NCBI GenBank assembly: GCA_963457525.1
Contig: OY734805.1
Span: 2,138,900 to 2,202,899, forward strand
Length of the DNA stretch: 64,000 nt
Source of the DNA: Parvibaculaceae bacterium
Lineage (GTDB): Bacteria; Pseudomonadota; Alphaproteobacteria; JAPOUT01
Reading direction: 5' to 3'
In this document: positions 43,802 through 64,000 of the stretch, in pieces
Layout of the letters: every line of letters begins with the position of its first letter
Position numbering within the stretch: the first letter of the stretch is position 1
Notes under the pieces: model-generated
Databases searched by the model: none
What the model saw: only the letters and a program-made list of their open reading frames with translations
What the model was told of the DNA's origin: nothing
Translations under genes and position numbers: made by a program

Positions 43802-44020
43802 ATGAAAATAACACTGACAACGACTTTCGCAATTGCCTTGATGGTGTTTGCGTTCAACACAAATCCTGTTATGGCGTTCGGCGGCGATGGCATCTGGGCC
43901 TCCAAGCCGCAGGTGGACGAGGTGCAAGATCCGGATGAAACCGGGAATGAACGAGGCGTTGCCGATTCCGGCAATGAAGCTTCCACGTCGGCAGCATCAG
44001 AAGGAGGCACTAACGAATAA
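43802..44020 (+). CDS. Small secreted acidic hypothetical peptide
   Basis: 72 aa. Signal peptide MKITLTTTFAIALMVFAFNTNPVMA; AAGGAG sits 8 nt before the ATG. It marks the start of a low-GC patch. Confidence 0.5.
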   Translation: MKITLTTTFAIALMVFAFNTNPVMAFGGDGIWASKPQVDEVQDPDETGNERGVADSGNEASTSAASEGGTNE

Positions 44021-44250
44021 GAGTTAGTGATGACACTAGCGACAAAATAGGAAAGGATGATACCGGCAGCACGGGCACAATAACCAGCGGCCAATAACGA
44101 ACCTACACAGCCCCTGCTCCCAAGCCGGTAGCGGGGGTTGCGTACTTCCTAAAAGTTTTTCTATCGCGGGGGAGGATTAGTTGGATGATGAAGGTGATTT
44201 TGCCGAGTTTTTAAGACGGCGGCAAAATTGAGAACCATTGCAGATGTTTA

Positions 44251-44478
44251 TTAGCTGACTATCAATCCGACTATCAAACTCATAACAGCAACGCCAAGAC
44301 CAACCACAACTGCTATCTCCAAGAGAAAAACTCTGGAGTTTTTCTCTGATATCGCGCGCAACTCTCCAAGGGCTTTTTCTACGTCCGTTCGAAGTCCTTC
44401 GACAGCGGCTTGATTCTTGGAAAGAGCAGATTCATTATCGGCATGGGCTGTTTTGTTGTTGGCTTCCACGGTTTTCAT
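44251..44478 (-). CDS. Tail-anchored coiled-coil mini-protein, paralog 1
   Basis: 75 aa. The N-terminal MKTVEANNKTAHADNESAL...EKALGELRAISEKNSR reads as charged and coiled-coil-like; the C-terminus VFLLEIAVVVGLGVAVMSLIVGLIVS is a single TM helix ending at the stop. Confidence 0.6.
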   Translation of the reverse strand: MKTVEANNKTAHADNESALSKNQAAVEGLRTDVEKALGELRAISEKNSRVFLLEIAVVVGLGVAVMSLIVGLIVS

Positions 44479-44543
44479 CCATCAAGCTATGAAAAGGAAA
44501 ATCCTCGCGCTTATTTGAAAATGAGAAATATTACAGATATTTA

Positions 44544-44771
44544 TTAGCTGACTATCAAGCCGGCTATCAAACTCATAACAACAACGCCAAGACCAACCAC
44601 AACTGCTATCTCCAAGAGAAGAATTCTGGAGTTTTTTTCTGTGGTCGTGCGGAGCTCCTCAAAAGCTTTCTCTATATCCGTTCGAAGTTTTTCAAAATCC
44701 ATACGAATCCGTTCAGCGGCAGATTCATTACCGGTATGGGCTACTTTGTTGTTAGATTCCATGGTTTTCAT
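44544..44771 (-). CDS. Tail-anchored coiled-coil mini-protein, paralog 2
   Basis: MKTMESNNKVAHTGNESAAERIRMDFEKLRTDIEKAFEELR...ILLLEIAVVVGLGVVVMSLIAGLIVS. GGAG sits 7 nt before the internal ATG at 44771, so the GTG-extended ORF was rejected. Its 3' 110 nt are about 90% identical to paralog 1 at the DNA level. Confidence 0.6.
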   Translation of the reverse strand: MKTMESNNKVAHTGNESAAERIRMDFEKLRTDIEKAFEELRTTTEKNSRILLLEIAVVVGLGVVVMSLIAGLIVS

Positions 44772-44875
44772 GTTCGGCTCCACATTAGTCCAACATTTCG
44801 ATTTGATATCGCGGTTGCTGACGATAGAACTCCTGAATCATTCAGCAAAAGACAATTGAATTCTGTCAGTGGCGT

Positions 44876-45085
44876 TTATAGAAATCTGAGTATCAAAGTT
44901 ATAACACCGACAGCAACGCCTATAAAAATCATCATCTTCGTAGTATGGGCATTGAAACTTTTCTCCATATCCGTACGAAGTTTCTCGTTATCGGCACGAT
45001 ATTCCTCGTTACTTGCACGAAGTCGCTCAATAGCGGCTTCGGTCTTGGAAAGAGCAGATTCATTATCAGCTTTCATAACTTTCAT
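44876..45085 (-). CDS. Tail-anchored coiled-coil mini-protein, paralog 3 (more diverged)
   Basis: MKVMKADNESALSKTEAAIERLRASNEEYRADNEKLRTDMEKSF...MMIFIGVAVGVITLILRFL. GGAGG sits 5 nt before the ATG at 45085; the longer ORF to 45232 lacks an RBS. Confidence 0.55.
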   Translation of the reverse strand: MKVMKADNESALSKTEAAIERLRASNEEYRADNEKLRTDMEKSFNAHTTKMMIFIGVAVGVITLILRFL

Positions 45086-45288
45086 ATTCGCCTCCACATT
45101 GTTCCTCAACAAGTCAATTTGATGTTGTTGTTCAGCCAGTTTCTTCTCCGTCTCGGTATCCGTGATACAGCAAAATCCTCCAGAAACGCTGCAAAAATCC
45201 GAATTACTTCCTAGAACGATTCTCCGCCCCATTTTACCGCCAAATCAACAGAACGTAAAACCCGGTAAATTCCCAATTTTTTTGGCAA

Positions 45289-46674
45289 TTATGCTGATTT
45301 TTCGGATAGCTCCGCGACAGTGCTTTCGAGGATATCCATCATATTGGAGAGTTCGTTGCGGGTGATAACCAGCGGCGGTGAAAACACGCACATATTGATC
45401 AGGGGGCGCACGATGAGCCCCTTTTCCTCGCAAGCCTGGTCGATTTGATATCCGATATCCCTATCCAGTTGGAGGCGCTCGGGCTCGGAGTCGTTTTGTG
45501 ATTGGATACGCCCCTCAATGCACCCGACGAGCCCGATGGCCCGGGCATCTCCGACAACGGGGTAGCGCTTGAGGGCTTCAAGACGCTCGAGGAAGTAAGG
45601 GGAGATTTCGCGCACATGCTCGAGGATGTTTTCGCGCTGCATGATTTCAATGTTTTTAAGTGCGGCGGCGCAAGGAATGGGGTGGCCGGAATAGGTATAA
45701 CCGTTGGAAAAGAGAACGTCTTCCTGCCCGGCGCCGCTGATGGCATTGATGATGCGATCGGAAATAATGCACGCTCCGAGGGGTTGATATCCCGAGGTAA
45801 GCCCTTTGGCGCAAGTGATGATATCGGGCGTGATGCCGAAAACCTCCTGCGACGAGAACCAATGCCCGAGTCTTCCGAACGCACAGACGACTTCATCGGA
45901 GATGTACAGCACGTCATATTTGCGGCAGATTTCGAGCGTTTTCCGGTGGTAGTCCGGCGGCGGGATGATAACTCCACCGGAAGCGAGCACCGGCTCAGCG
46001 ATAAATCCGCCCACGTTCTCCGCACCGGCTTCGAGAATGGTGTCCTCAAGATCTTTGACTTTTGCATCGCACCACTCCTCAAGGCTCGTGCCTTCGGGGC
46101 GCAAGTTCGGATTAACATTGGGGAGGATGCGCACGAGAGGGCTGTCGATGTCGAACCAGCTTTTGTCGCGCTCTTTTCCCGAAACGCTTGCCGCCAGGAA
46201 GGTTGAGCCGTGGTAGCCTTTCTCCCGCGCGATCATGATTTTTTTATTGGGCCGTCCGAGCCGGTTATTATAGAAATGCATAGCCCGAATGGCGGTGTCG
46301 ACGGCGGTTGAGCCCCCGGTTGTGAAGAAAACATTGTTGAGGTCTCCGGGCGCCATTTCCGCAAGTGTTTGCGCGAGAGTTGCGCCGGGAGCGGATGTCA
46401 TGAACCACGGCGAGCAATAGGAGAGCGTGTCTATCTGTTCGACGATTGCGTCCGCGATTTCCTTGCGTCCATGGCCGATTTGCACGCACCACATGCCTCC
46501 CGGGCCGTCAATGAGCTTGCGTCCATGCTGGTCGTAGATATAGATGCCCTCGGCCTTTGTGGCGATGAGCCGGTTGGCGTTGCCATAGGACTCCATCGCC
46601 TCCCACGGATGGAGATAGTGGCGATTGTCATACTCGGTGAGCGTTACTGCCGTGTTGGAGCGTGTTTTATTCAT
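45289..46674 (-). CDS. Class III (omega) aminotransferase, PLP-dependent
   Basis: 461 aa carrying motifs typical of this class: GGMWCVQIGHG, YHGST, DEVVCAFGRLG and the Schiff-base region TCAKGLTSGY. Confidence 0.85.
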   Translation of the reverse strand: MNKTRSNTAVTLTEYDNRHYLHPWEAMESYGNANRLIATKAEGIYIYDQHGRKLIDGPGGMWCVQIGHGRKEIADAIVEQIDTLSYCSPWFMTSAPGATLAQTLAEMAPGDLNNVFFTTGGSTAVDTAIRAMHFYNNRLGRPNKKIMIAREKGYHGSTFLAASVSGKERDKSWFDIDSPLVRILPNVNPNLRPEGTSLEEWCDAKVKDLEDTILEAGAENVGGFIAEPVLASGGVIIPPPDYHRKTLEICRKYDVLYISDEVVCAFGRLGHWFSSQEVFGITPDIITCAKGLTSGYQPLGACIISDRIINAISGAGQEDVLFSNGYTYSGHPIPCAAALKNIEIMQRENILEHVREISPYFLERLEALKRYPVVGDARAIGLVGCIEGRIQSQNDSEPERLQLDRDIGYQIDQACEEKGLIVRPLINMCVFSPPLVITRNELSNMMDILESTVAELSEKSA

Positions 46675-51099: not shown

Positions 51100-51384
51100 G
51101 CCGCCGTAGCTCAGTGGTAGAGCGCACCCTTGGTAGTGATTTGCCTCCCCGCTTGGAAACGGGCGGGTGCTAACTGCTCAAATTCGGGGAATCCTACGGG
51201 CATTCGGCCTACGGCAATCCCGAGCCAAGCCTCTTTCGAGGAAGGTGTAGAGACCAGACGGGCGGGACCCCTTCGGGGTCAAGGGATGGTCCGGACCACA
51301 AACGCGAATGGATATTTGCGGCCGTGAAAGCGGTAGCTGGTGTGAAGGGTGAGGTCGAGTGTCCGATTCACTCCGGCGGCACCA
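51100..51384 (+). tRNA. tRNA-Thr (anticodon GGU) interrupted by a group I intron in the anticodon loop
   Basis: Exon 1 is 51100-51134 (GCCGCCGTAGCTCAGTGGTAGAGCGCACCCTTGGT). Exon 2 is 51345-51384 (AAGGGTGAGGTCGAGTGTCCGATTCACTCCGGCGGCACCA). Joined, they give a 75-nt cloverleaf with a perfect 7-bp acceptor stem, anticodon stem CACCC/GGGTG, loop TTGGTAA and discriminator A followed by CCA. Confidence 0.8.
51135..51344 (+). ncRNA. Group I self-splicing intron (subgroup IC3-like), 210 nt, no ORF
   Basis: Exon 1 ends in U and the intron's last base is G. A GCC a few nt into the intron can pair with the exon GGU as P1. Core segments CAAATTCGGGGAATCCTA, CGAGCCAAGC, GAAGGTGTAGAGACCAGACGG and CAAACGCGAATGG closely match what I recall of the Azoarcus tRNA-Ile and Agrobacterium tRNA-Arg bacterial tRNA introns. 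Confidence 0.75.
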
Positions 51385-51528
51385 TCTTTTTTCGGGGAAT
51401 GCTTAATTTCTTGGGGGGAATTTTCAATCCACTTCTTCCCCGCCCGGTTTGAATGATTCCAGCATTCAAAGAGAAACCCCGCCTTGAAGAATCTTAGAGC
51501 AGTCAAGGCAAGGGTTTGTCATTGATGC

Positions 51529-53337
51529 TCATCCACTTCTGTTATCATTAATTCTTCTGGGTCCGAGTGTTGCGAGTCCTGCATTTGCCTGTGGGATTTC
51601 GATAGAATGACTATAGGATACGGGTACACGATCCCTGCGAACAGTGACTTGCAGCCAGACGACAGTTGAGCCTGCTGAAATTGTGATTGGGCAATTGGCA
51701 TTGTTGCAAGTTGTACTCGAGGACGAATCAAATCTGGGTGTTTGCCCCTCCGGAATAACTTGATATCGCGCAAACCAACCGTCTGCAACACCATAAGTCT
51801 CCATGCCACTAGCAATAAAATTCACCATTAAATCCTCAGTTAGAGCCTCGCTCAACTCAATTACAAAATTCAAGGTTCCGGCGACAATAGACGACTGTCC
51901 GCCATACTTGCCAGCATAACCCAGTGAAACAGTTGGTATTGGGTTTTGAAGAGTGAAATCCAGGCTCGATTGGCTTCCAAGTCGCACGAGGCTTGTGCTC
52001 CCTGAATCAACCTCAATGAAAACGGTAAAGGTCTCAGGAGGTTCGAAAGGCGAGTTCATATTGGCTTCGAGGGTCACTTCGACACTAGTATCGTTAGCAT
52101 CAATCGTTACCTGACAAGGGTTGCTTTCGCTTGCCATGTCACAATCAGTTCCGCTAACGCTTAAATTCCAATCAGCAGAAATTCCATAGTCGGCATCCCC
52201 GTCTTCTCCGCCTTCTAAAAAATTGATGGTGACATCATCGGATACCGTCTTGCTTAAAGTGATAGTTAAGGTAGCCGTTTCCCCCTCCGAGATGCTCGTG
52301 CTTTCAGCACTCAGTGAAAGAATCGCCGCTTCTTCTCTCAGCGGTTCCTCCTCCTCTTCTTCTTCTTCCTCCACCTCATTCAGTATCTCACGTTCTTCAT
52401 AGAGAACCCGTTTCTCCCGCTCAACGATTTTATACAAGTTTGAGGACATGGATCCGTCTCCATAGTTTTGCCCTTCGAAATCAGGCAAAGAAAACCGAAA
52501 CGCCAATCCTAAACTCCAACGCTGATTAATTACGAAATCTTCCTGATGCTTCTCCCAATCAGCCTCAACGAAAACGCCCGGAAAAATCCGTAAACCTACA
52601 TCGGCTCCAACTGAGACTCTCCAATCATCTGCAACATCTGCTCCACCTTCATGTCTCCAATAACCAAGACTGGCACCCGCACGAATTGTCTCTTTTTCAA
52701 GTGCGATCCTTGTATCCAATCCCTTCAAGGTCTTTTCTATAAAGTCTTTCCTTCGTCCATCCTTCTCGCTACTCAACGGATGGTAATAATTCAAAGCACC
52801 ATGGAAGATGCCGCTTTGCATGTCCACGCCAATGCCAAGACGCTTATGACCGACCCGATCAAAGTCCCAATCGTAGAAAATGGAAGCTCCCCCGATTGCG
52901 TCAATGCCGATGGGAGTGTTTGCGAGATTGGTGCGATAAACAATGCCGAAATTCCCGTCCGCACGTTCTTCCTCTCCATGCCCCTTCCAGAAGACGATTC
53001 CAGGCTGCGTGAATATCAAGTGTCCGTTTTCGTTGTAGAAAGGAATTACGAGGTCAATTTCACCTTCAAATGCAACATCCGTTGATTCCTCGCCCACCCA
53101 GCTCAGCGATGAATCTATCTGGAACCCTTCATCAAACAATGCAAGACCGCCCCGATACAGAGCATCTTCAATCGCATCCACAATCAGTTGAGAGCCGGTT
53201 TCCCGCAGGCTCAATGTTTGATTTTCGGTTACTGAAAATTGGGGATGAGAATAATTCGTGGTCGCTGTTGCCGATGAACCAAGTGGAAGCATCAAGAGCG
53301 TGGATATTGCAATGATAGCAGAATGGAACAAACGCAC
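51529..53337 (-). CDS. Putative outer-membrane surface protein A: N-terminal beta-barrel-like domain plus C-terminal Calx-beta/Ig-like repeats
   Basis: Signal peptide; about 285 aa of alternating amphipathic beta-strand segments with aromatic girdles (GGASIFYDWDF, RLGIGVDMQSGIFHGALNYYH, WRVSVGADVGLRIF, QRWSLGLAFRFSL); an E9 linker; then two or three beta-sandwich repeats fitting a Calx-beta pattern (ISEGETATLTITLS...DVTINF...DYGIS...CQVTIDANDTSVEVTLE). Confidence 0.6.
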   Translation of the reverse strand: MRLFHSAIIAISTLLMLPLGSSATATTNYSHPQFSVTENQTLSLRETGSQLIVDAIEDALYRGGLALFDEGFQIDSSLSWVGEESTDVAFEGEIDLVIPFYNENGHLIFTQPGIVFWKGHGEEERADGNFGIVYRTNLANTPIGIDAIGGASIFYDWDFDRVGHKRLGIGVDMQSGIFHGALNYYHPLSSEKDGRRKDFIEKTLKGLDTRIALEKETIRAGASLGYWRHEGGADVADDWRVSVGADVGLRIFPGVFVEADWEKHQEDFVINQRWSLGLAFRFSLPDFEGQNYGDGSMSSNLYKIVEREKRVLYEEREILNEVEEEEEEEEEPLREEAAILSLSAESTSISEGETATLTITLSKTVSDDVTINFLEGGEDGDADYGISADWNLSVSGTDCDMASESNPCQVTIDANDTSVEVTLEANMNSPFEPPETFTVFIEVDSGSTSLVRLGSQSSLDFTLQNPIPTVSLGYAGKYGGQSSIVAGTLNFVIELSEALTEDLMVNFIASGMETYGVADGWFARYQVIPEGQTPRFDSSSSTTCNNANCPITISAGSTVVWLQVTVRRDRVPVSYSHSIEIPQANAGLATLGPRRINDNRSG

Positions 53338-53498
53338 TTGAAAATCTCCCTTAATAAGAATTGTTAAACATTTGAAGGGATAGGCGGCAAGAGGACTGTT
53401 TCGTTCCGTTTGGAGGTTATTTCCAATTTATCCCCTCGCCGCCCGTTTGGTGTTAGTTGAGAGTATCTTTGCGATTACTTCCCGTTCCAGTTTGAAGT

Positions 53499-55205
53499 TT
53501 ATTGTAAAGTAATCGTTTGTTCTGATGGACTGCCCTCTACCAAACCTGTTGAACCAGCCGAAGCAATACTAATAGAGACAGTGATGTTACCAGTTCCCGC
53601 GGAGACTCCGATAACTGACACATCAGCTTCGGTTTGACCGGCAGTAATAGTGAATTGGCAATTATTGATATCTGGACAAGTTTGAGCTCCTGCACTAACT
53701 ATCCATTGGGATGAATAAGCCAATGTGCTTGACCCACCAACATTCAGCGTGACGTCTTCACTAAGAGTCCTGCTCAATTGAGCTCTCATTGTTGCAAATC
53801 CACCAACGTCAACACCCCTGCTCTCTTCTATCTCTCCAGTTGAGAGCGTCGTGCTGACATAACTCAGCGAAACAGTTGGCACCTGCGGATCCGCAGAGAT
53901 AGTGAAAGACAAACTTGAATTACCGAGCATCAATTTCGTATTGCCTGCAGAAGCAATCGCCATAGAAAGATTTATATCCTCGACAAGTTCGTTGGGCTCA
54001 CCTTCGACAATGGAAATCGTTACATTGGCACTGGTATCCCCAGCGGCAATCATCACCTGGCAATTATTCTCTGTGACTTCGGTGCAAGCCGTGCCGCCGA
54101 CAGACACGGTATAATCGTTAGAAGAACCATACATTGCAGAACCAGTTCCAACGAGATTCAAAGTGACATCTTCCGTCAACGCTTCGCTCAACTGGATTTG
54201 AAATTCCACCGTATCGCCTTCTGCAACACTTTCACTTCCAGTGTGAACAATCGAAGCAGTCGGTCCCGCAACACGTTCCTCATAAAGAACCCGCTTTTCA
54301 CGGTCTACGATCTTATACAGGTTTGCAGACATTGACCCGTCCCCGTAGCTCGCGCCTTGAAGGTCGGGCAAAGAAAACCGGAACGCCAAACCGGCAAAAA
54401 TACGCTCGTCCAGCACGAGGTCGTCCTTATGCTTTTCCCATCCGGCTTCCACGAAAACTCCGGGCATGACCCGAACCCCGAAATCTATCCCCATCGAGGT
54501 TTGCCATCCGCTCTGGGGGTCCTCCTGTCCGCCGCTCTCTTCCCCGGTGTAATCCCAATAACCGACAGATGCTTCCGCGCGCACTATCTCTTTCTCAATA
54601 GCCAAGCGTAAATCCATTCCATCTACGGCTTCCTCAATGAAACCCTCTCGGCCATCTTCAACTTCGCTAAGCACATGGTAATAGTTCGCTCCCAGTAGCA
54701 AAGAGCCGCTTTGCAAATCAATGCCGCCCCCGGCGCGAGAATGTCCGATCTGGAAATCCTGATCATAGAAAAACGAAACACCGCCAATAAGGTCTCTGGT
54801 CAGTTCGGTGCGATAGACAAGACCAAAGTTACCGTCAATGCGTTCCTCTTTTTCGATCCCGGTCCAAAACACGGCGCCGGGTTGTGCGAATAATACATGC
54901 TTGCCGTAATGCAACAACGGGATTACGGCATCCACCTCGCCTCTGATGCCCTCAACGTCTCCCAAATCGTAACCAATGGACGAGTCGAGTTGGAAACCAC
55001 CGCCAAACACCTCAACGCCTGCCACTCTGAAAGCGTTCTCAATGGCATCAATAACGATTTGGGATCCGGTCTCACGCAAACTTAGCGCGCGGTCTTCAGT
55101 TACTGAAAATTGGGGATGGGAATAATTCGTGGTTGCTGTTGCCGAAGACCCGATGGAAAATATCAAGGCTACGGACATTAAGGTAATCAAAAGACGGACA
55201 TTCAT
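53499..55205 (-). CDS. Putative outer-membrane surface protein B, paralog of A
   Basis: Its first ~310 aa are highly similar to protein A (SSATATTNYSHPQFSVTE...GLAFRFSLPD.QG..YGDGSMS.NLYKIV.REKRVLYEER). The C-terminal Calx-beta-like repeats are diverged. Confidence 0.6.
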   Translation of the reverse strand: MNVRLLITLMSVALIFSIGSSATATTNYSHPQFSVTEDRALSLRETGSQIVIDAIENAFRVAGVEVFGGGFQLDSSIGYDLGDVEGIRGEVDAVIPLLHYGKHVLFAQPGAVFWTGIEKEERIDGNFGLVYRTELTRDLIGGVSFFYDQDFQIGHSRAGGGIDLQSGSLLLGANYYHVLSEVEDGREGFIEEAVDGMDLRLAIEKEIVRAEASVGYWDYTGEESGGQEDPQSGWQTSMGIDFGVRVMPGVFVEAGWEKHKDDLVLDERIFAGLAFRFSLPDLQGASYGDGSMSANLYKIVDREKRVLYEERVAGPTASIVHTGSESVAEGDTVEFQIQLSEALTEDVTLNLVGTGSAMYGSSNDYTVSVGGTACTEVTENNCQVMIAAGDTSANVTISIVEGEPNELVEDINLSMAIASAGNTKLMLGNSSLSFTISADPQVPTVSLSYVSTTLSTGEIEESRGVDVGGFATMRAQLSRTLSEDVTLNVGGSSTLAYSSQWIVSAGAQTCPDINNCQFTITAGQTEADVSVIGVSAGTGNITVSISIASAGSTGLVEGSPSEQTITLQ

Positions 55206-55639
55206 TGATAGACTCCTATGGTTAGAACGAAAGAATTTGCTCCGATACTCTGCCCGAAAGACTACCTGAAATTCGTTGTGGTGTAAAACAAATTTTCGAC
55301 GACTGTCTTTCGACTGTCCTTCAGTTGAATACGGGATAGGATATACAACCTATGAGGATGTCCGAATCGGTTTGAGCGACTGATGGAAATGTTCCAAAAA
55401 CCCCGTATTTCCGGCAAAAATGGGGAATTGAGTAGCTGTTGTCACAAAGCCCCGAATCGGTTGGGATGCCATTAGTTTAGCCCAATACCCTAATAGTTGC
55501 TGGAAATTGTTGTATTTTTGCCGGTGTCTATCGTGTAAGTATCCGGTTTTTCCGAAAAAAGCTTGATTATTGCCTGGTTCCGGACTCTGGTTGCAATGGT
55601 TGTCTGTAAGCCAATCCTGTGTGCAAACCAAACCCAAAG

Positions 55640-55725
55640 AAAGCCCCGGCATCATCCAAAGGATTTTGTCGGGGCTTTTTCGTTGAAGCCCCCAGCCGAA
55701 GAAATGGAAACGGCTGGGGGTCTTA
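55640..55725 (-). terminator. Two tandem stem-loops downstream of the lipoprotein operon; the first looks like a bidirectional intrinsic terminator
   Basis: AAGCCCCG-N21-CGGGGCTT is flanked by T-rich runs on both strands (TTTTTCG on plus, TCTTTGGGTTTGG on minus). It is followed by CCCCCAGCCG-N12-CGGCTGGGGG. Confidence 0.5.
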
Positions 55726-55734
55726 TAGTGTCAG

Positions 55735-56031
55735 TTATTCGGCTACGTATTGTCTTTCCATTTCTTCGGCAACACGTATATCCTTCTCTCCAAGTTCCCT
55801 TTTGATACTTGGAGCATTTTCTCTGATTGCATCCTCATTTACGTCATCATGAGTTTTAACAAAAGCCCAAAAAGAGGCGTTTGTATCATTACTCTTGTCA
55901 TTCATTGGAATGAATCGTTTGTCCAATTCAGATCCAATAAATGTTTTAAATTTTTTTCGGTCATGAATATCATTGTTATCACCATTAGTTAGGGGTTTAT
56001 TCCCCCCTAGCCTGTACTTATCGATCCGCAA
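55735..56031 (-). CDS. Small hypothetical protein, low GC
   Basis: 98-aa ORF starting 4 nt after the lipoprotein stop; no recognisable motif. Confidence 0.4.
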   Translation of the reverse strand: MRIDKYRLGGNKPLTNGDNNDIHDRKKFKTFIGSELDKRFIPMNDKSNDTNASFWAFVKTHDDVNEDAIRENAPSIKRELGEKDIRVAEEMERQYVAE

Positions 56032-56034
56032 TGT

Positions 56035-56970
56035 TTATTGCCTCGTCCCACCAAAAGCACCCGTGACCGTTCTGGTATTAAAGAACCCACCGACTTCGGT
56101 ATGCCCTGTACCATAGAACTGTCCGCTGACTTCCTCGTTATTAGTAGATGATGTAAAACTCCCGTCCGTGACCGCCAAACCTTCAAAAGAGATTGCCGAT
56201 ATGCCTGCTACCGCTTGATTGTTTATTGTCCGCCAGTTCTCAAACATTAAATCGACTGTTGGACTTGCAAGATCGCTGATGGTAATGGTCGCATTACCTC
56301 GTGCGAAAGCCCTGGTAGTTTTTACAGAGGCGACTGCGGCGCCTTCCCATGTTGCTTCGCCCGTTCCGGTGGGATTTGAACCAACAGGAACACCAGTAGA
56401 GTGAGCCATGAATCGATATTCTCGATCGCTGGATTCCCCAATCGTTATCTGTGTAGTTCCAAAAACACTGTCATCAAGCCATCCCGCAAATGTTCTAAAT
56501 TCGAATGGGGTCTCTATGAATTCTGTTGTAAAAATTCCACCTGCGAGAGAAGCACCACCAAATGTTACGCTACCTGATACTCTAGATTCAGGATCAACCA
56601 GGGTTGGGGTATCAGTAGAAAGGAGGAAAAGGTTACGAACCCTCACACGATCAGCCTCAAACGAAAGAGAATTCGAATCGATAAACTCGATAGCACATAT
56701 ATCCCCGCCACAAAGAGTTTCAAAGTTATCACTTGCTCCGTAAACATCGCTAATTATAGATATCGTTCCATTAACACCTGCGATTGCTGAATAATCTGTA
56801 TAGGTTTGAGAATTTTCGGCTGCAACGAAACTAGGAAAGCCGGCAAACGGATCAGATACAGGTGTTAACGGAGTGCTACCACCCCCACCACCTCCACCGC
56901 CTCCGCCTCCGCATGCGAGTAGAAGCGTCATTGCAGGGGCTATTGCAATCAATCTTATCGTGTTCATCAT
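56035..56970 (-). CDS. Surface lipoprotein with a TbpB/fHbp-like C-terminal handle/beta-barrel domain
   Basis: AAGGAG sits 6 nt before ATGATG at 56970. Signal peptide plus lipobox LLLAC, a 13-residue poly-Gly tether, and the C-terminus EVSGQFYGTGHTEVGGFFNTRTVTGAFGGTRQ, which resembles the terminal strands of Neisserial TbpB/fHbp-type 8-stranded barrels. Confidence 0.6.
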   Translation of the reverse strand: MMNTIRLIAIAPAMTLLLACGGGGGGGGGGGSTPLTPVSDPFAGFPSFVAAENSQTYTDYSAIAGVNGTISIISDVYGASDNFETLCGGDICAIEFIDSNSLSFEADRVRVRNLFLLSTDTPTLVDPESRVSGSVTFGGASLAGGIFTTEFIETPFEFRTFAGWLDDSVFGTTQITIGESSDREYRFMAHSTGVPVGSNPTGTGEATWEGAAVASVKTTRAFARGNATITISDLASPTVDLMFENWRTINNQAVAGISAISFEGLAVTDGSFTSSTNNEEVSGQFYGTGHTEVGGFFNTRTVTGAFGGTRQ

Positions 56971-57016
56971 AGTATCTCCTTGTAGGTTTAAGTTACAGAT
57001 AATCGGCATTATATCA

Positions 57017-57244
57017 TCAATGATTTTCCGTGTCATCCTTATCGTTCCCGTCATCCTCTGTCTTTTCAAAAAACACTTCCACCATTTTAGGTTGCCCGTT
57101 TTCATCTTCTACAATCATAAACCGTCTATGTAAATCTTCCTCTGTCGGCTCAGTAGGGAATTTCGTCATTGAGCAGGATTCCGAGGTCTTGAGAATTGCT
57201 TTCGTCAATGTCTCTAAGTTCTTTACGGATGCTTTTCGTTTCAT
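57017..57244 (-). CDS. Small acidic hypothetical protein (doubtful)
   Basis: 75-aa ORF that overlaps the transposase remnant; no RBS checked. Confidence 0.25.
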   Translation of the reverse strand: MKRKASVKNLETLTKAILKTSESCSMTKFPTEPTEEDLHRRFMIVEDENGQPKMVEVFFEKTEDDGNDKDDTENH

Positions 57245-57530
57245 TCCTTAACTCCTTCATCATCAGCGTCTTGCCTACCATAGCACCAAACAACGATTCA
57301 AGACGGTCAATCGTGTCTCGCTTAACATTACCGCTATCCAGACGGAACGCAAACTCATTCATGTAGAACTGGAAGTATTTCATGCTCCACCAAACATAAG
57401 TGCCTTTCCACGCCCTCTTAACAACAGCCCAGTCCGACTCAATGGAGTTCGTATTACCGCCCATTGCTTTCACCCATTCAGCAGGCGAGGATTTGTTTAT
57501 GGACGCACCCTTGTAACCGAGATTCCGCAA
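57150..57530 (-). pseudogene. IS1595-family transposase remnant (C-terminal fragment only)
   Basis: FYMNEFAFRLDSGNVKRDTIDRLESLFGAMVGK matches the conserved C-terminus of IS1595/ISXO2-like transposases (Y.NEFAFR.N.R). The DDE N-terminal two-thirds are absent and no terminal inverted repeats were found. Confidence 0.6.
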
Positions 57531-57771
57531 ACCCTGATAGTAGGAAGCGTCATCCGTGTAGTGGTCGCACCAGGCTCGACATACTTGGCAATGATTTTTT
57601 CACCAAAAGATTTTGTCGGGGCTTGTATTGCCGATTCGATTTAGCGGTGTTTCGGGCCGCGATGCGGGGCAGCGCGAATCACCTCGCGTTTCGGTTTTAG
57701 CGCGAGGCAGCAAACCAAACGGTTTTAGCCCAAGTGTTTTTTGTCGTCTCTGCACGCTACCGGAAAGGAAG

Positions 57772-57849
57772 TGGTCGGAGCGGCGGGATTTGAACCCACG
57801 ACCCCTTGTCCCCCAGACAAGTGCGCTACCGGGCTGCGCTACGCTCCGA
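57772..57849 (-). tRNA. tRNA-Pro (anticodon GGG)
   Basis: The reverse complement CGGAGCGTAGCGCAGCCCGGTAGCGCACTTGTCTGGGGGACAAGGGGTCGTGGGTTCAAATCCCGCCGCTCCGACCA folds as a cloverleaf with anticodon loop CTGGGGG. Confidence 0.8.
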
Positions 57850-57857
57850 CCGTTGAG

Positions 57858-61985: not shown

Positions 61986-62210
61986 CGAAATACATTCGTA
62001 AAGATCGGCAGGCAAAATGTCGGCAAGTCATCGCTGGCACTTTATCAGGCTTGGGAAGAGCCTTGCGGAAGAAGGTTGGAAGATATTGTCTTGGCGTGGA
62101 AAGCTATGGAAATGCGCGTGTTTATCGTCGGCGAATCTAGACAGATTGCGCAAGGTTTTTAGAATCGTTTGATATCAATTAAACGGCATGGGATGCTCCG
62201 GCCAACCTTG

Positions 62211-62678
62211 CTAACGCGCTTTCTCGTCATTTCTTTTTTCTCTTATGTATTCTTCCTGAATATATCTATAAGGAATCACGGATTTTTCGCCGAACTCATT
62301 TTTTGTTCGTTCCCATGCTCCACCCTCCTTATGAGTATAACCTACAAGATAGCCTGGCGACTTGTCCCTTCCCCAATTAACAACGGTCTCCAACATTCCA
62401 TATTCGGATTGGTGGTATTTTCTTATATCGACATACGGGAACACATTCTTAACGTGGGACGCTCCAAAATCCTTGCAGAAATCATACAACTCGGGTTGAA
62501 GCGGTCCGTATTTCCACGCTTCGAAATCTCCTCGTATAAGATATTTCGGATTTTCCTTATCCTCCCCGATAAAATTTAAACATGCGATATAGAGAAGTTT
62601 TTGCAATTTTAGATTGGAAGCTTTCCAGCCTGATAATTCGCAAATTATTCTCCCGGCTTGGATAGATGATATAGACAT
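62211..62678 (-). CDS. Panacea-domain (DUF4065, SocA-like) putative antitoxin
   Basis: LQKLLYIACLNFIGEDKENPKYLIRGDFEAWKYGPLQPELY fits the Panacea core (LQKLLYfa...F.Ae.F.Aw..GPV.p.vY). Low-GC context. Confidence 0.6.
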   Translation of the reverse strand: MSISSIQAGRIICELSGWKASNLKLQKLLYIACLNFIGEDKENPKYLIRGDFEAWKYGPLQPELYDFCKDFGASHVKNVFPYVDIRKYHQSEYGMLETVVNWGRDKSPGYLVGYTHKEGGAWERTKNEFGEKSVIPYRYIQEEYIREKRNDEKAR

Positions 62679-62851
62679 TGTTAATTAAACAATTTGATAA
62701 ACAGACCGACCGACCGACAACTGTGTTCTCAGATTGTTTCCTTCTTATCTATGAACCGATGACAACCAACCAGCTTTCAACTCTCCAGGCGGTATATCAA
62801 ATAACCAAAACCCAAGAAAAGTTAATAGGAGAACACCTTTAACATTGAGCG

Positions 62852-62953
62852 TTATCCGAAGATATGCGGGAACACCAACCAGTCAGCCAGACCATATGTA
62901 GCAATGGCATAAACGACTGGCGGAATGAATTCCACTAAATCATCAATCGTCAT
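62852..62953 (-). CDS. 33-aa hydrophobic peptide ORF (candidate small membrane toxin), missing from the ORF track because it is under 60 aa
   Basis: Hand-translated as MTIDDLVEFIPPVVYAIATYGLADWLVFPHIFG. AAGGAG sits 8 nt before the ATG. It lies 170 nt upstream of, and on the same strand as, the Panacea gene. Confidence 0.35.
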   Translation of the reverse strand: MTIDDLVEFIPPVVYAIATYGLADWLVFPHIFG

Positions 62954-63517
62954 CTTATTATCTCCTTATCAGGTCAGTTGGTGATACTGGAAACGTAATA
63001 TCAATTCGTTCTAAGCGCAATAATACTTATTAATTTCCACCGATTCGTCAAAACTCTCCCGTTACCGTCCAATTTCAGCCTGATTCGCCTTTATTGGCAT
63101 AATCAGGTTTTTACTCGTTAAAAACTCGTAAGTATCCAGTGTTACTGGAAAAACCGGATACTTATAAGATGAGAGCAGTAAAGAGCCCGTTCCGCCATCA
63201 GTAGCAGGAACGGGGAAAATCGGGCTAATAGGAGAGATGATAGGGCATGACCCAAAGGAATTGTGTCTGCAACCCTTCAACGCCAATTGCGATATATTGG
63301 GGACTTGAGACAATTATTCGTTTCATCGCTGCCGGATAATATCGAGTGGTTTTGATTTTATGGTCGGCACAAGTCAGGTATGGCATTTTATTTAAAGACA
63401 AAGGTAACAGACCATGCTATACTGCCAATATGCAACAAGAGAACTCAGACTGCAGATTCGAAGGTCTGAAGCATCGGTTCGAGTTGCCGGGAAAACAAGT
63501 TATGTAGGAGGTGTATT

Positions 63518-63742
63518 ATGAACACAGGACAAACAATCGGAGCGATTGTAGTAGCCGTATTCACGGTAATAGCGACTGTGGTTGGGGCGACTTGGATAGT
63601 GTTGGAAGAGATTGGCGAAGTTCGTATTGAACTTCACAAAGAAAATGCAGAGGTTCGTGAAAACATCGGTGGTCTCCGCGGAGATGTTGGAAATGTCGAT
63701 ACCAAACTTGGCGCATTTATAGATTCTCATAGGAGAACATGA
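63518..63742 (+). CDS. Small membrane-anchored coiled-coil protein (phage-like remnant)
   Basis: TAGGAGGTG sits 7 nt before the ATG. The N-terminus is a TM helix (IGAIVVAVFTVIATVVGATWIVL) followed by a charged helical segment. Confidence 0.45.
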   Translation: MNTGQTIGAIVVAVFTVIATVVGATWIVLEEIGEVRIELHKENAEVRENIGGLRGDVGNVDTKLGAFIDSHRRT

Positions 63743-64000
63743 TCTTTTTTACGATGCTGCCGCCAAAAACGATGAGGAGAATTCCACTTCGGCAAATTAA
63801 ACCGCTGTTGCCATTCCACGTAAAACGGCATTCGGCGATTACGGCAGACATAAAAGTTTCATCAGAGCGAATCGCTACGAAAAGAAACGAATTCTAAGGG
63901 GTTTCTGCCCGGGTCTCTTGGGGATAATTTTCTTAAACTCCGTGCGCTAAAATAGCAAGCAGCAACAGCGCCACAATATTCGTAATCTTGATTATCAAAT

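What the first reader, a model, noticed from the sequence alone, without database searches (positions are those of the whole stretch)
51400..57850. tRNA-Thr to tRNA-Pro island encoding paralogous barrel-plus-Calx-beta surface proteins and a TbpB-like lipoprotein: candidate uncharacterised surface-display/adhesion module
GC content drops from about 60% to about 48% between the intron-containing tRNA-Thr and tRNA-Pro(GGG). The island holds two tandem paralogs (602 and 568 aa). Each has a signal peptide, an N-terminal ~285-aa domain with the alternating amphipathic strands and aromatic girdles of an outer-membrane beta-barrel ending in a GLAFRFSL-type strand, a linker (E9 in protein A), and C-terminal Calx-beta/Ig-like repeats. 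That N-terminal-barrel, C-terminal-passenger order is the inverse-autotransporter (type Ve, intimin/invasin) layout, though sequence similarity to intimin could not be established. Next to them lie a lipoprotein with a poly-Gly tether and a C-terminus like the TbpB/fHbp/Slam-dependent surface lipoprotein barrel, an IS1595 transposase remnant and two small ORFs. No Slam (DUF560), TonB-dependent receptor or integrase is present, so the surface-exposure route for the lipoprotein is unexplained.
Basis: partly seen in the sequence, partly recalled or inferred. Interest (0 to 1): 0.75.

Follow-up and report, generated by a model that had tools for sequence, protein, structure and literature searches.

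The report
Strain-variable inverse-autotransporter adhesin gene island
A 6.2-kb low-GC stretch between two tRNA genes of an uncultured marine Hyphomicrobiales bacterium encodes two intimin-type (type Ve) outer-membrane adhesins with Calx-beta-like stalks and a TbpB/hemophilin-fold lipoprotein; these protein kinds are known, but the locus differs sharply between near-identical strains, and this lipoprotein usually sits beside such adhesin genes with no Slam exporter gene nearby.

Summary
Window 51410-57602 has 46.6% GC against 55.9% for the rest. It lies between the 3' ends of an intron-split tRNA-Thr(GGU) and tRNA-Pro(GGG). ORFs A (602 aa) and B (568 aa) are inverse autotransporters. Both hit Pfam IAT_beta at 54.5 and 70.3 bits (threshold 22.3). 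A family profile hits the invasin and intimin barrels in the PDB by sequence. An AlphaFold model matches those barrels (TM 0.70), and its C-terminal domains match Calx-beta domains. The 311-aa lipoprotein has a lipobox, an 11-glycine tether and a handle-plus-8-strand-barrel fold like hemophilin, TbpB and fHbp, which are Slam/T11SS cargo. A near-identical strain has 98.5-99.2% identical flanks but different content: three IATs, and a lipoprotein only 32% identical. Positional IAT orthologs keep 96% identity in the barrel and 57% in the passenger. The family is multi-copy (at least 5-13 per genome) and confined to one uncultured clade. NCBI already names relatives "inverse autotransporter beta domain-containing protein". 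The new points are the recurrent IAT-lipoprotein adjacency with no Slam gene nearby, and a conserved ~100-nt element 3' of these genes. Verdict: new members of known kinds. Interest is moderate.

The parts
51100..51384 (+). tRNA-Thr(GGU). Exons are 51100-51134 and 51345-51384. A 210-nt group-I-like intron (51135-51344) sits right after the anticodon. The tRNA's 3' end faces the island, so it is the left anchor.
   Evidence: ARAGORN -i and a spliced-exon test. Rfam Intron_gpI scores 27.8 bits, E 5.8e-4, below the gathering score. The core aligns to the Azoarcus IC3 intron sequence, which I recalled from memory.
51410..57602 (.). Strain-variable low-GC region (6193 bp). It is bounded by flanks that are 98.5-99.2% identical in a second strain (L001).
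   Evidence: blastn of the window against L001: 51409-49884 matches L001 19887-21412 at 98.5%, and 62741-57603 matches L001 4455-9590 at 99.2%. Inside the region, identity is only 70-86% in patches and the gene content differs. GC is 0.466 against 0.559.
51529..53337 (-). IAT-A, a 602-aa inverse autotransporter. It has a signal peptide, a barrel at about aa 73-284 (nt 52486-53121), the conserved linker NLYKIVEREKRVLYEER, an E9 run at aa 323-331 (nt 52345-52371), and two Calx-beta-like domains.
   Evidence: Pfam IAT_beta 54.5 bits (threshold 22.3) and LapA 25.9 bits (threshold 27). NCBIfam SinH N-terminal region, E 2.7e-15. Alignment to B.
53374..53474 (-). Conserved ~100-nt element starting 25 nt after the stop codon of IAT-B. 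It has a 9-bp GC-rich stem enclosing ~39 nt. In the clade it is found only 3' of IAT or lipoprotein genes.
   Evidence: Alignment A6 and RNAalifold. Covariance model R1 found 12 distinct copies in 370 kb, all directly after IAT genes (11) or a lipoprotein gene (1). No Rfam family matches here.
53499..55205 (-). IAT-B, a 568-aa inverse autotransporter. It has a signal peptide (aa 1 to about 22-24), a conserved periplasmic segment (aa ~25-70), a beta-barrel at aa 72-278 (nt 54372-54992), a linker at aa 279-315, and passenger domains at aa 316-440 (nt 53886-54260) and aa 444-567 (nt 53505-53876).
   Evidence: Pfam IAT_beta 70.3 bits. AlphaFold2 model with pLDDT 70.4. Foldseek: intimin 4e1s E 2.7e-10 with TMt 0.70, invasin 4e1t, NCX1/CALX Calx-beta domains. 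The family profile hits invasin and intimin by sequence.
55601..55680 (-). Copy of a dispersed terminator-like repeat (hairpin AGCCCCG...CGGGGCT plus a T-rich tail). It contains the 22-mer AAGCCCCGACAAAATCCTTTGG (55656-55677) and lies ~400 bp upstream of IAT-B.
   Evidence: the repeat finder D4. Two copies in the window against 0 expected. Copies occur in L001, L005, L006, L019, L021, L022 and L024, next to both IATs and unrelated genes. Terminator-like scan hits at 55661-55634.
55735..56031 (-). 98-aa orphan ORF downstream of the lipoprotein gene; doubtful as a gene.
   Evidence: No Pfam or NCBIfam hit. No homolog in the related loci.
56035..56970 (-). 311-aa lipoprotein. It has lipobox LLAC (Cys20), a G11 tether, a variable N-terminal handle domain (aa ~48-177), and a conserved C-terminal 8-strand barrel of TbpB_B_D type (aa ~184-310, nt 56041-56421).
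   Evidence: Exact match to the public gene call P0121. Pfam TbpB_B_D 21.2-21.6 bits (threshold 26). NCBIfam slam_lipo 28.7 bits (cut-off 80). AlphaFold2 pLDDT 84, pTM 0.81. Foldseek top hits are HphA 7rea, TbpB C-lobe, fHbp, LbpB, NHBA and PmSLP.
57008..57036 (-). Best sigma70-like promoter match in the island (ATGACA-17-TATAAT with an upstream TG). It lies 38 nt upstream of the lipoprotein ATG, which has an AAGGAG ribosome-binding site.
   Evidence: Promoter scan, 11 of 12 matches; sequence read directly. This is a consensus match only. The 48 nt upstream of the ATG are 100% identical in L001.
57150..57530 (-). IS1595-family transposase remnant (C-terminal fragment only).
   Evidence: PF12762 36.5 bits, matching profile positions 111-153 of 153. 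NCBIfam transpos_IS1595 29.2 bits. 33% identical to the IS1595 fragment in L001.
57603..57624 (-). Second copy of the 22-mer repeat. It marks the right-hand edge of the variable region, 148 nt downstream of the tRNA-Pro 3' end.
57772..57848 (-). tRNA-Pro(GGG). Its 3' end faces the island, so it is the right anchor.
   Evidence: ARAGORN. Rfam tRNA 62.2 bits. The same tRNA occupies the same place in L001.

Best explanation
The region is a chromosomal hot spot for variable surface proteins in an uncultured marine Hyphomicrobiales lineage that is probably invertebrate-associated. It lies between the convergent 3' ends of tRNA-Thr and tRNA-Pro. A and B are type Ve (inverse autotransporter) adhesins. 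The steps of their biogenesis below are inferred from the family. A Sec signal peptide takes them to the periplasm, and the N-terminal 12-stranded barrel is inserted into the outer membrane by BAM. The conserved linker (NLYKIV(D/E)REKRVLYEER) runs back through the pore, and the C-terminal passenger of tandem Calx-beta-like beta-sandwiches is exported by a hairpin mechanism. On the surface it would act as a (probably Ca2+-stiffened) adhesive stalk. The third gene encodes a lipoprotein built like Slam/T11SS cargo: a variable N-terminal handle and a conserved C-terminal 8-strand barrel on a poly-Gly tether. Its most likely role is as a ligand-binding outer-membrane lipoprotein. Surface display, if it happens, would need an exporter that is not encoded in this window. 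Diversity at the locus comes from recombination among the many paralogs in the genome. The highly conserved 5' barrel-coding halves and a conserved ~100-nt 3' element flank the divergent passenger cassettes, and dispersed repeats and IS1595 fragments lie at rearrangement joints. This yields strain-specific sets of adhesins. Shown here: the family membership, the predicted folds, the locus variability, and the pattern of conserved ends around a variable middle. Inferred: the topology, surface exposure, adhesion function, Ca2+ binding, and the recombination mechanism.
For: IAT membership:
- Pfam IAT_beta scores 54.5 and 70.3 bits against a threshold of 22.3, and 52 of 52 relatives hit it.
- A family profile hits invasin 4e1t (E 6.7e-7) and intimin 4e1s (E 4.6e-5) by sequence.
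- The AlphaFold2 model's best PDB matches are those two barrels, with TMt 0.69-0.70.
- NCBI names relatives 'inverse autotransporter beta domain-containing protein'.

Passenger:
- Foldseek hits NCX1 and CALX Calx-beta domains.
- 12 of 52 family members hit Calx-beta and 24 of 52 hit LapA.

Lipoprotein:
- It has a lipobox and a Gly tether.
- The AlphaFold2 model has pLDDT 84 and matches HphA, TbpB, fHbp, NHBA, LbpB and PmSLP.
- 45 of 46 relatives hit TbpB_B_D at E <= 0.01.
- The family profile retrieves proteins that score above the Pfam threshold for TbpB_B_D and FHBP_C.
- A variable N-terminal domain with a conserved C-terminal barrel is the published T11SS-cargo architecture (PMC12282271).

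Hypervariability:
- Flanks are 98.5-99.2% identical to L001, but gene number and order differ, and the lipoproteins at the same locus are 32% identical.
- B against its positional ortholog is 96% identical in the barrel and 57% in the passenger. B against same-genome paralogs P0030 and P0039 is 91% and 40-42%.
- Copy number is at least 5 IATs on the 2.84-Mb contig, at least 11 on a 3.77-Mb contig, and 13 loci in MAG CLI1_bin_3.
- The conserved 3' element is specific to these genes.

Chromosomal setting: the neighbouring genes are core housekeeping genes, including uvrA, gyrA, ppk, ntrYX, trkAH, hisD, murA, ihfA, fabH and plsX.
Against: - There is no experimental evidence for localisation or function.
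- The IAT model has only moderate confidence (pLDDT 70; residues 1-69 and the linker are below 50).
- A and B themselves do not reach Pfam thresholds for Calx-beta or LapA.
- The lipoprotein is below the curated cut-offs of TbpB_B_D (21.6 against 26) and slam_lipo (28.7 against 80).
- No Slam/T11SS outer-membrane protein was seen in the window or in any related context, so surface display of the lipoprotein is unsupported.
- Recombination is inferred from mosaic identity patterns. No breakpoint or phylogenetic incongruence test was run.
- The host-associated (sponge) origin rests only on record names (ROBB21, CLI1, TARA) and could not be verified.
Confidence: 0.75

Rival explanations
1. The IAT and the TbpB-fold lipoprotein form a functional two-gene module rather than independent neighbours. 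In the manner of ZirT/ZirS or SinH/SinI systems, the IAT would help export, anchor or present the lipoprotein, or the two would form a surface co-receptor. This would give a Slam-independent route or partner for a T11SS-cargo-like lipoprotein.
For: - I retrieved 14 distinct lipoprotein genes by their own sequence. Seven or eight lie within 1 kb of an IAT gene or IAT remnant on the same strand, with gaps as small as 44-330 bp. Eleven or twelve lie within 8 kb.
- IATs occur only about once per 200-300 kb in these genomes.
- None of these contexts has a DUF560/Slam or TonB-receptor Pfam hit (same calls).
- The same conserved 3' element follows both IAT genes and a lipoprotein gene.
- There is published precedent for IATs with co-encoded partners (PMC4943183, section 11).
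- The best NCBIfam match of A and B is the SinH N-terminal region.
Against: - Gene order is not fixed: IAT-then-lipoprotein and lipoprotein-then-IAT both occur.
- In this window the lipoprotein has its own promoter-like site and is separated from B by ~830 bp containing a terminator-like repeat.
- All 13 IAT loci sampled from MAG CLI1_bin_3 lack a lipoprotein in their flanks.
- At least two or three lipoprotein loci lack an IAT (L019, L026).
- ZirT-type partners share Ig-like domains with their IAT, whereas this lipoprotein has an unrelated fold.
- These IATs carry full multi-domain passengers that should occupy the pore.
- No IAT-lipoprotein fusion appeared among the nine long relatives I tested.
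- Co-location could simply reflect both families being cargo of the same variable islands.
Confidence: 0.12
2. The region is a classical horizontally acquired genomic island. A mobile element would have integrated site-specifically at a tRNA gene and brought foreign adhesin genes from a distant, lower-GC donor.
For: - GC is low (0.466 against 0.559).
- The region sits between two tRNA 3' ends.
- IS1595 fragments are present, and content varies between strains.
- In another genome, one lipoprotein paralog sits in an integrase-bearing island next to tRNA-Gly (L019).
Against: - There is no integrase, excisionase or transfer gene.
- There is no direct repeat derived from either tRNA. The only tRNA-like 19-mer (56367-56385) lies inside the lipoprotein coding sequence, in the conserved motif GVPxGSNPTG.
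- The two 22-mers belong to a dispersed terminator-like repeat and are not a target-site duplication.
- Every named homolog of the IATs and of the closest lipoproteins is a Hyphomicrobiales MAG, and the contigs I traced come from the same few assemblies. That lineage's GyrA is 79-100% identical within it and only ~62% to the nearest named genera.
- IAT and lipoprotein genes have the same reduced GC (about 0.45-0.55) wherever they sit in these genomes. The low GC is therefore a family trait, not a sign of recent import.
Confidence: 0.08
3. The lipoprotein is an ordinary periplasm-facing outer-membrane lipoprotein. It would be Lol-delivered and never surface-exposed, sharing only an ancient fold with TbpB/fHbp-type proteins.
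For: - No Slam/T11SS outer-membrane protein is encoded in the window or near any of 14 related genes.
- Scores are below the curated cut-offs of slam_lipo and TbpB_B_D.
Against: - The variable handle with a conserved C-terminal barrel matches T11SS cargo, in which the barrel is the export signal (PMC12282271).
- Alleles at the same locus in near-identical strains are only 32% identical. This rapid divergence is typical of exposed, selected surfaces.
- The gene co-travels with surface adhesin genes.
Confidence: 0.3

Closest known systems
Intimin / invasin and the wider inverse autotransporter (type Ve secretion) family, Pfam PF11924
   Same: The layout is the same: signal peptide, N-terminal 12-strand barrel, linker, then a C-terminal passenger of tandem beta-sandwich domains. 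The HMM hit is above threshold, there is sequence and structural similarity to 4e1s and 4e1t, and the passenger diverges more than the barrel between alleles, as described for intimin (PMC4943183).
   Different: There is no LysM domain; instead there is a short, clade-conserved ~45-aa periplasmic segment. There are no Big_1/Big_2 domains and no C-type lectin tip, and the passenger is Calx-beta/LapA-like with a conserved Cys pair. The family is expanded to at least 5-13 copies per 3-4 Mb genome, and there is no Tir or T3SS context in the window.
ZirT/ZirS/ZirU and SinH/SinI-type inverse autotransporters with co-encoded partners (Heinz et al. 2016, PMC4943183)
   Same: In relatives, an IAT gene is repeatedly followed or preceded on the same strand by a smaller secreted-protein gene. 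The SinH N-terminal region is the best NCBIfam match of A and B.
   Different: The partner here is a lipoprotein with a TbpB-type fold, not an Ig-like paralog of the passenger. Gene order is not fixed, the IATs carry long passengers, and in this window the two genes look separately transcribed.
Slam/T11SS-dependent surface lipoproteins and hemophores (TbpB, LbpB, fHbp, NHBA, HphA/hemophilin, PmSLP)
   Same: Shared features are a lipobox with a flexible tether, a variable N-terminal handle domain, and a conserved C-terminal 8-strand TbpB_B_D-type barrel. The best structural matches are all from this group.
   Different: Scores are below the curated family cut-offs. No adjacent DUF560 outer-membrane protein, TonB-dependent receptor or TonB gene is present. 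The host is an alphaproteobacterium, and the usual neighbour is an IAT gene instead.
Calx-beta / LapA-type repeat adhesins (e.g. Pseudomonas LapA; Ca2+-dependent RTX-type adhesins)
   Same: Both have tandem Calx-beta-like beta-sandwich repeats of ~120-150 aa forming an extended stalk, and the repeat number varies between alleles (2 to over 15).
   Different: LapA-type adhesins are exported by type I secretion and retained by LapE/LapG. Here the repeats hang from a type Ve barrel.
Inverse autotransporters reported in sponge alphaproteobacterial symbionts ('Ca. Luteria ianthellae', PMC10947273)
   Same: Both are IATs in uncultured marine host-associated Alphaproteobacteria, proposed to anchor the symbiont to host tissue.
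   Different: That report describes a single expressed IAT discussed together with a T3SS/Tir-like mechanism. Here there is a large hypervariable paralog family with Calx-beta passengers, and no T3SS is visible in the window.

Membership tests
Inverse autotransporter (type Ve, PF11924 IAT_beta) | IAT_beta HMM match above the Pfam gathering score | tested here: met
   A scores 54.5 bits and B 70.3 bits against 22.3. All 52 of 52 aligned relatives hit it.
Inverse autotransporter (type Ve, PF11924 IAT_beta) | Beta-barrel fold superposable on the intimin and invasin translocation domains | tested here: met
   The AlphaFold2 model of B has 12-13 strands at aa 72-278. Its top Foldseek PDB hits are 4e1s, 5g26 and 4e1t, with E 2.7e-10 to 3.8e-9 and TMt 0.69-0.70. 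The family profile hits 4e1t and 4e1s by sequence. Model confidence is moderate (pLDDT 70).
Inverse autotransporter (type Ve, PF11924 IAT_beta) | Inverted order: N-terminal signal peptide and barrel, C-terminal passenger | tested here: met
   The order can be read directly from the translations and the model. The signal peptide was judged by eye only (MNVRLLITLMSVALIFSIGSSA|TA); no predictor was run.
Inverse autotransporter (type Ve, PF11924 IAT_beta) | Linker through the pore and a surface-exposed passenger; dependence on BAM | not testable with these tools
   This needs protease shaving, immunofluorescence or BamA depletion. The linker region of the model is below pLDDT 50.
Intimin/invasin sensu stricto | Passenger of Big_1/Big_2 domains ending in a C-type-lectin-like tip; LysM in intimin | tested here: not met
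   A and B have no Big_1, Big_2, Intimin_C, Invasin_D3 or LysM hit. One of 52 relatives has a weak Big_12 hit.
Calx-beta domain (PF03160) / LapA domain (PF20579) | HMM match above the gathering score in A and B themselves | tested here: not met
   A scores 25.9 bits on LapA (threshold 27) and B 13.6 bits. Neither has a Calx-beta hit at E <= 0.1.
Calx-beta domain (PF03160) / LapA domain (PF20579) | Homology at family level and a Calx-beta fold | tested here: met
   12 of 52 relatives hit Calx-beta (best E 2.3e-9) and 24 of 52 hit LapA (best E 1.1e-9). Foldseek hits NCX1 (9iv8, E 2.9e-7) and CALX CBD12 (3rb7, E 9.2e-6).
Calx-beta domain (PF03160) / LapA domain (PF20579) | Ca2+-coordinating acidic residues | not tested
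   I made no residue-level comparison with the CBD1/CBD2 Ca2+ sites.
Slam/T11SS-dependent surface lipoprotein | Lipobox cysteine with a flexible N-terminal tether | tested here: met
   The sequence reads MMNTIRLIAIAPAMTLLLAC followed by G11. C20 and the following glycines are invariant in 46 relatives.
Slam/T11SS-dependent surface lipoprotein | C-terminal 8-strand TbpB_B_D / lipoprotein-C barrel, by curated HMM cut-offs | tested here: inconclusive
   TbpB_B_D scores 21.2-21.6 bits against 26, and slam_lipo NF041636 scores 28.7 against 80. However, 45 of 46 relatives hit TbpB_B_D at E <= 0.01. The family profile also retrieves proteins above the threshold, for example P0347 at 86.6 bits plus FHBP_C.
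Slam/T11SS-dependent surface lipoprotein | Handle-plus-barrel fold | tested here: met
   The AlphaFold2 model has pLDDT 84 and pTM 0.81. Foldseek top hits are HphA 7rea, TbpB C-lobe 5kkx, fHbp 8bk2 (TMt 0.64), LbpB 4u9c, NHBA 6cuj (TMt 0.66) and PmSLP 9b3e.
Slam/T11SS-dependent surface lipoprotein | A cognate DUF560 (Slam/T11SS) outer-membrane protein, usually adjacent, often with a TonB-dependent receptor | tested here: not met
   None was found among the island ORFs, among ten large ORFs elsewhere in the window, or in the precomputed Pfam annotation around 14 related lipoprotein genes. The rest of the 2.84-Mb genome could not be searched.
ZirTS/SinHI-like IAT two-partner systems | A partner gene co-encoded next to the IAT on the same strand | tested here: inconclusive
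   This is met in relatives (L016, L020, L021, L022, L024, L028; gaps of 44-590 bp). In the window the lipoprotein lies upstream of B with its own promoter-like site and a terminator-like repeat in between.
ZirTS/SinHI-like IAT two-partner systems | The partner shares Ig-like domains with the IAT C-terminus, and the IAT has a short C-terminal extension | tested here: not met
   The lipoprotein has a TbpB-type fold. The IATs have two or more Calx-beta-like domains.
tRNA-linked integrative genomic island | An integrase and att direct repeats derived from the tRNA 3' end | tested here: not met
   No integrase hit was found. No tRNA-derived flanking repeat was found, and the 22-mer is a dispersed repeat.
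tRNA-linked integrative genomic island | Deviant composition and presence/absence or content variation between strains | tested here: met
   GC is 0.466 against 0.559. Content differs from L001 despite ~99% identical flanks.

The most novel reading that the evidence does not exclude
In this uncultured clade, TbpB/hemophilin-fold lipoproteins may have been taken over from the Slam/T11SS pathway and now work with inverse autotransporters. The IAT would serve as their exporter, anchor or co-receptor, in the manner of a ZirT-like two-partner system. The pair would be diversified as cassettes bounded by a conserved 5' barrel region and a dedicated ~100-nt 3' element. That would be a previously undescribed route or partnership for surface lipoprotein display, and a programmed-looking variation system for host-interaction proteins in a marine symbiont.
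Probability: 0.12. Interest if true: 0.7.

Novelty: new member of a known kind. Interest (0 to 1): 0.35.

Why it matters
How uncultured marine symbionts attach to and are recognised by their hosts is poorly understood. This lineage devotes many hypervariable loci to intimin-type adhesins with Calx-beta stalks, and near-identical strains carry different sets. That points to strong diversifying selection on cell-surface interactions, from host, phage or immune-like recognition, and it supplies concrete candidate adhesins to test. The recurrent pairing with a T11SS-cargo-like lipoprotein, with no Slam gene seen nearby, is a testable lead on how surface lipoproteins reach the surface outside Beta- and Gammaproteobacteria. 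For annotation, the result is mostly confirmatory. The two large genes are inverse autotransporters, as pipelines already call their relatives. The 'hypothetical' lipoprotein can be labelled as a TbpB_B_D-fold lipoprotein.

Tried and rejected
- The look-up of encoding contigs for B itself (P0001) returned nothing on record, so I could not browse the window's own genome.
- The single genome-contig scan found the IAT family in only one GTDB species representative.
- Two JGI metagenome scans with the lipoprotein profile found no relatives. The first used only the lipobox pattern; the second used the C-terminal barrel alignment A4.
- The afdb50 fold library was unavailable.
- att-site idea rejected. 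The 19-nt similarity to the tRNA-Pro T-arm (56367-56385) lies inside the lipoprotein coding sequence, at a conserved protein motif.
- Target-site-duplication idea for the two 22-mers rejected. They are copies of a dispersed terminator-like repeat found next to unrelated genes.
- Integron attC idea for the 3' element rejected. I saw no R''/R' core sites by eye and there is no integron integrase nearby.
- Rosetta-stone test: nine long relatives of the lipoprotein carry only TbpB_B_D, FG-GAP or similar domains, and none carries IAT_beta.
- The MFE z-score of the tRNA intron was uninformative (z = 0.04), and covariation in the 3' element is weak, with one compensatory pair.
- Literature searches for the sample and MAG identifiers and for a bacterial tRNA-Thr group I intron found nothing usable.
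- The Rfam asX2 hit (E 0.5) is only the terminator-like hairpin.
- The small ORFs of 98, 75 and 101 aa have no family hits and no homologs in related loci.

Full report
**1. The observation**

The window drops from 0.58-0.66 GC (48-50.5 kb) to 0.41-0.54 between about 51.3 and 57.6 kb. Using the boundaries defined below, the island 51410-57602 is 46.6% GC against 55.9% for the rest of the window.

tRNA-Pro(GGG) lies at 57772-57848 on the minus strand. Default ARAGORN found no tRNA-Thr. Read directly, the sequence at 51100-51384 shows tRNA exons separated by 210 nt. Rfam's group I intron model matches 51128-51320 at 27.8 bits (E 5.8e-4), below its gathering score of 50. The 3' ends of both tRNAs face the island.

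- A: 51529-53337, 602 aa.
- B: 53499-55205, 568 aa.
- A lipoprotein ORF whose real start is the MMNTIRL methionine at 56970. This gives 311 aa and is identical to the public gene call P0121.
- An IS1595 C-terminal fragment at 57150-57530.
- Small ORFs without any family hit.

**2. What the two large proteins are**

Both match Pfam IAT_beta far above threshold, at 54.5 and 70.3 bits against 22.3. Both also match the N-terminal regions of the NCBIfam models for SinH, Inv and YchO invasins.

A database search with B returned 166 relatives. All of the best 120 carry PF11924, and the only source names are [quoted passage not shown]. A profile of 52 of them hits the crystallised invasin and intimin barrels by sequence, at E 6.7e-7 and 4.6e-5.

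An AlphaFold2 model of B has mean pLDDT 70.4; the N-terminal 69 residues and the linker are poorly modelled. It shows 12-13 strands between residues 72 and 278, a short helix, and two beta-sandwich domains at 316-440 and 444-567. Its best PDB matches are intimin 4e1s and invasin 4e1t (E 2.7e-10 to 3.8e-9, TM 0.69-0.70 on the target). The C-terminal part matches Calx-beta domains of NCX1 and CALX.

A and B themselves have only sub-threshold LapA-domain hits. Among 52 family members, 24 hit LapA and 12 hit Calx-beta. There are no Big, lectin or LysM domains.

They are therefore inverse autotransporters (type Ve) with Calx-beta-like passengers. They are members of the family but are not intimins or invasins in the strict sense.

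**3. The lipoprotein**

The protein has a lipobox (LLAC), eleven glycines, a Shine-Dalgarno sequence, and the best promoter-like site of the island just upstream.

Pfam TbpB_B_D (21.2-21.6 bits against 26) and NCBIfam slam_lipo (28.7 against 80) are both below their cut-offs. Even so, 45 of 46 relatives hit TbpB_B_D at E <= 0.01. An exhaustive profile search found 2030 cluster representatives. Some of these score well above the Pfam threshold for TbpB_B_D and FHBP_C.

The AlphaFold2 model (pLDDT 84, pTM 0.81) has an N-terminal handle and a C-terminal barrel. Its best PDB matches are hemophilin HphA, TbpB lobes, fHbp, LbpB, NHBA and a Slam-dependent Pasteurella SLP.

Relatives share the C-terminal half far better than the N-terminal half. 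This is the published architecture of T11SS/Slam cargo: a variable effector domain plus a conserved 8-strand barrel (PMC12282271).

**4. Organism and distribution**

GyrA from the window is 79-100% identical to a handful of proteins; those carrying a source name are "Hyphomicrobiales bacterium" MAGs. It is only ~62% identical to the nearest named genera, such as Parvibaculum and Amorphus.

The IAT family was found in one GTDB species representative, Hyphomicrobiales bacterium CLI1_bin_3, at 13 loci. It also occurs in ENA metagenome assemblies whose record names (ROBB21, TARA) suggest marine invertebrate samples. I could not verify that origin.

The window's own 2.84-Mb contig carries at least five IAT paralogs and two lipoprotein paralogs. 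A 3.77-Mb relative carries at least eleven IATs. IATs in sponge alphaproteobacterial symbionts have been reported before (PMC10947273).

**5. The locus is hypervariable**

Contig L001, from another sample, has the same core neighbours: plsX, fabH, ihfA, merR and tRNA-Pro on one side, and tRNA-Thr and murA on the other.

Its flanks are 99.2% identical to the window (62741-57603) and 98.5% identical (51409-49884). Between them it carries three IATs, a 140-aa ORF, an IS1595 fragment and a lipoprotein at the tRNA-Thr end. The window instead has an IS1595 fragment and the lipoprotein at the tRNA-Pro end, followed by two IATs.

The two lipoproteins are 32% identical, yet their promoter, signal-peptide and 3' ends are conserved.

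Identity between B and related IATs:

| Comparison | Barrel region | Passenger |
|---|---|---|
| B vs positional ortholog (L001 IAT1) | 96% | 57% (plus one extra domain) |
| B vs same-genome paralogs P0030, P0039 | 91% | 40-42% |
| B vs A | 59% | 35% |

A conserved ~100-nt element starts 25 nt after the stop codon of B (53374-53474). A covariance model finds 12 distinct copies in 370 kb of clade sequence. All of them lie directly 3' of IAT genes (11) or a lipoprotein gene (1), and none lies beside a housekeeping gene.

Conserved 5' and 3' ends around divergent middles fit cassette exchange by homologous recombination. That is an inference; I ran no breakpoint analysis.

Several features argue against a classical integrative island:
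- There is no integrase and no tRNA-derived repeat.
- The 22-mer duplicated at 55656 and 57603 belongs to a dispersed terminator-like repeat.
- IAT and lipoprotein genes show the same reduced GC wherever they occur in these genomes.

**6. The IAT-lipoprotein association**

I retrieved 14 distinct lipoprotein genes by their own sequence and examined their surroundings.
- Seven lie within 1 kb of an IAT on the same strand: the window, L016-18, L020, L021, L022-23, L024 (44-bp gap) and L028.
- L025 has an IAT remnant 0.9 kb downstream.
- Four more have an IAT within 2-8 kb.
- Only L019 and L026/27 show none; in L026/27 the contig ends just upstream of the lipoprotein gene, so that side is unseen.

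With roughly one IAT per 200-300 kb, this is far beyond chance. No flank contains a DUF560 or TonB-receptor hit.

Heinz et al. describe IATs with co-encoded partners such as ZirT/ZirS and SinH/SinI (PMC4943183), so a functional pairing is conceivable. Several points argue against it:
- Gene order varies.
- The 13 IAT loci sampled from CLI1_bin_3 have no lipoprotein in their flanks.
- The partner fold is unrelated to the passenger.
- The window's lipoprotein looks separately transcribed.
- No fusion proteins were found.

I rate this reading at about 12%.

**7. Verdict**

The components belong to known kinds: type Ve adhesins and a T11SS-cargo-like lipoprotein. Pipelines already recognise the adhesins.

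Three things go beyond routine:
- Variability between near-identical strains, with a conserved barrel and a swapped passenger.
- The clade-specific expansion of the family.
- The recurrent adhesin-lipoprotein neighbourhood with no Slam gene nearby, together with a dedicated 3' element.

Function, topology and the lipoprotein's export route remain inferred.

Noticed in passing
window 51100-51384 (+); intron 51135-51344: tRNA-Thr(GGU) is interrupted by a 210-nt intron directly 3' of the anticodon. The intron follows a U and ends in G. Rfam Intron_gpI scores 27.8 bits, below its threshold. The core blocks (TCAAATTCGGGGAA, GGCAATCCCGAGCCAAGC, GAAGGTGTAGAGACCAGACGG, CAAACGC) align with the Azoarcus tRNA-Ile IC3 intron as I recall it from memory. 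The full-text library turned up no report of a bacterial tRNA-Thr group I intron. The region from murA up to the island edge at 51409, which includes this tRNA, is 98.5% identical in L001.
   Followed up: partly
window 53374-53474 (-); also L001 12179-12279 and 16662-16757, L016 2599-2699 and 3682-3783, L021 (three copies), L013, L002, L008, L028: A conserved ~100-nt element lies immediately 3' of IAT genes and of one lipoprotein gene. It has a 9-bp GC-rich stem around a conserved ~39-nt interior, no T-run after the stem, and no Rfam match. There are 12 distinct copies in 370 kb, none beside other gene types. It could be a 3' UTR or stability element, an atypical terminator, or a recombination boundary.
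   Followed up: partly
window 55601-55680 and 57603-57624; L001 9566-9645; L005, L006, L019, L021, L022, L024: A dispersed 60-170-nt terminator-like repeat (AAAAAGCCCCGACAAAATCCTTTGG...CCGGGGCTTTCTTT). It occurs upstream of several IAT genes and downstream of unrelated genes. In the window, two copies bracket the segment holding the IS1595 fragment and the lipoprotein gene.
   Followed up: partly
window 43700-45300: A second small low-GC islet (0.43 GC at 44-45 kb) holds three tandem paralogous small proteins (75, 79 and 118 aa) with a coiled-coil region and a C-terminal transmembrane helix, plus a 72-aa secreted-looking protein. Homologs of these small proteins recur beside IAT and lipoprotein genes in L001, L010, L011, L020, L021, L025 and L028.
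   Followed up: no
window 62000-64000: A third low-GC region (0.40-0.44) begins with a SocA_Panacea-type gene at 62211-62678(-). Identity to L001 falls from 99% to 86-94% and becomes patchy beyond 62741, so this is another strain-variable segment.
   Followed up: no
L016 5891-6232; L017 3481-9584; L022 4672-5823: Islands carrying the IAT-lipoprotein pair in relatives also hold an ankyrin-repeat protein, AbiTii and SIR2_2 defence-like genes, a pentapeptide-repeat protein and a Fic protein. These are typical accessory or host-interaction cargo.
   Followed up: no
proteins P0319 (4105 aa) and P0320 (2461 aa): Giant proteins contain 14 and 5 tandem copies of the whole handle-plus-barrel lipoprotein module. 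They are either real multi-module surface proteins or fused gene calls.
   Followed up: no
L009, L010, L011, L015 (IAT ORFs of 1338-2587 aa): The same barrel family also carries very long passengers, up to about 2500 aa with Calx-beta hits. Passenger length therefore varies more than four-fold within the clade.
   Followed up: no
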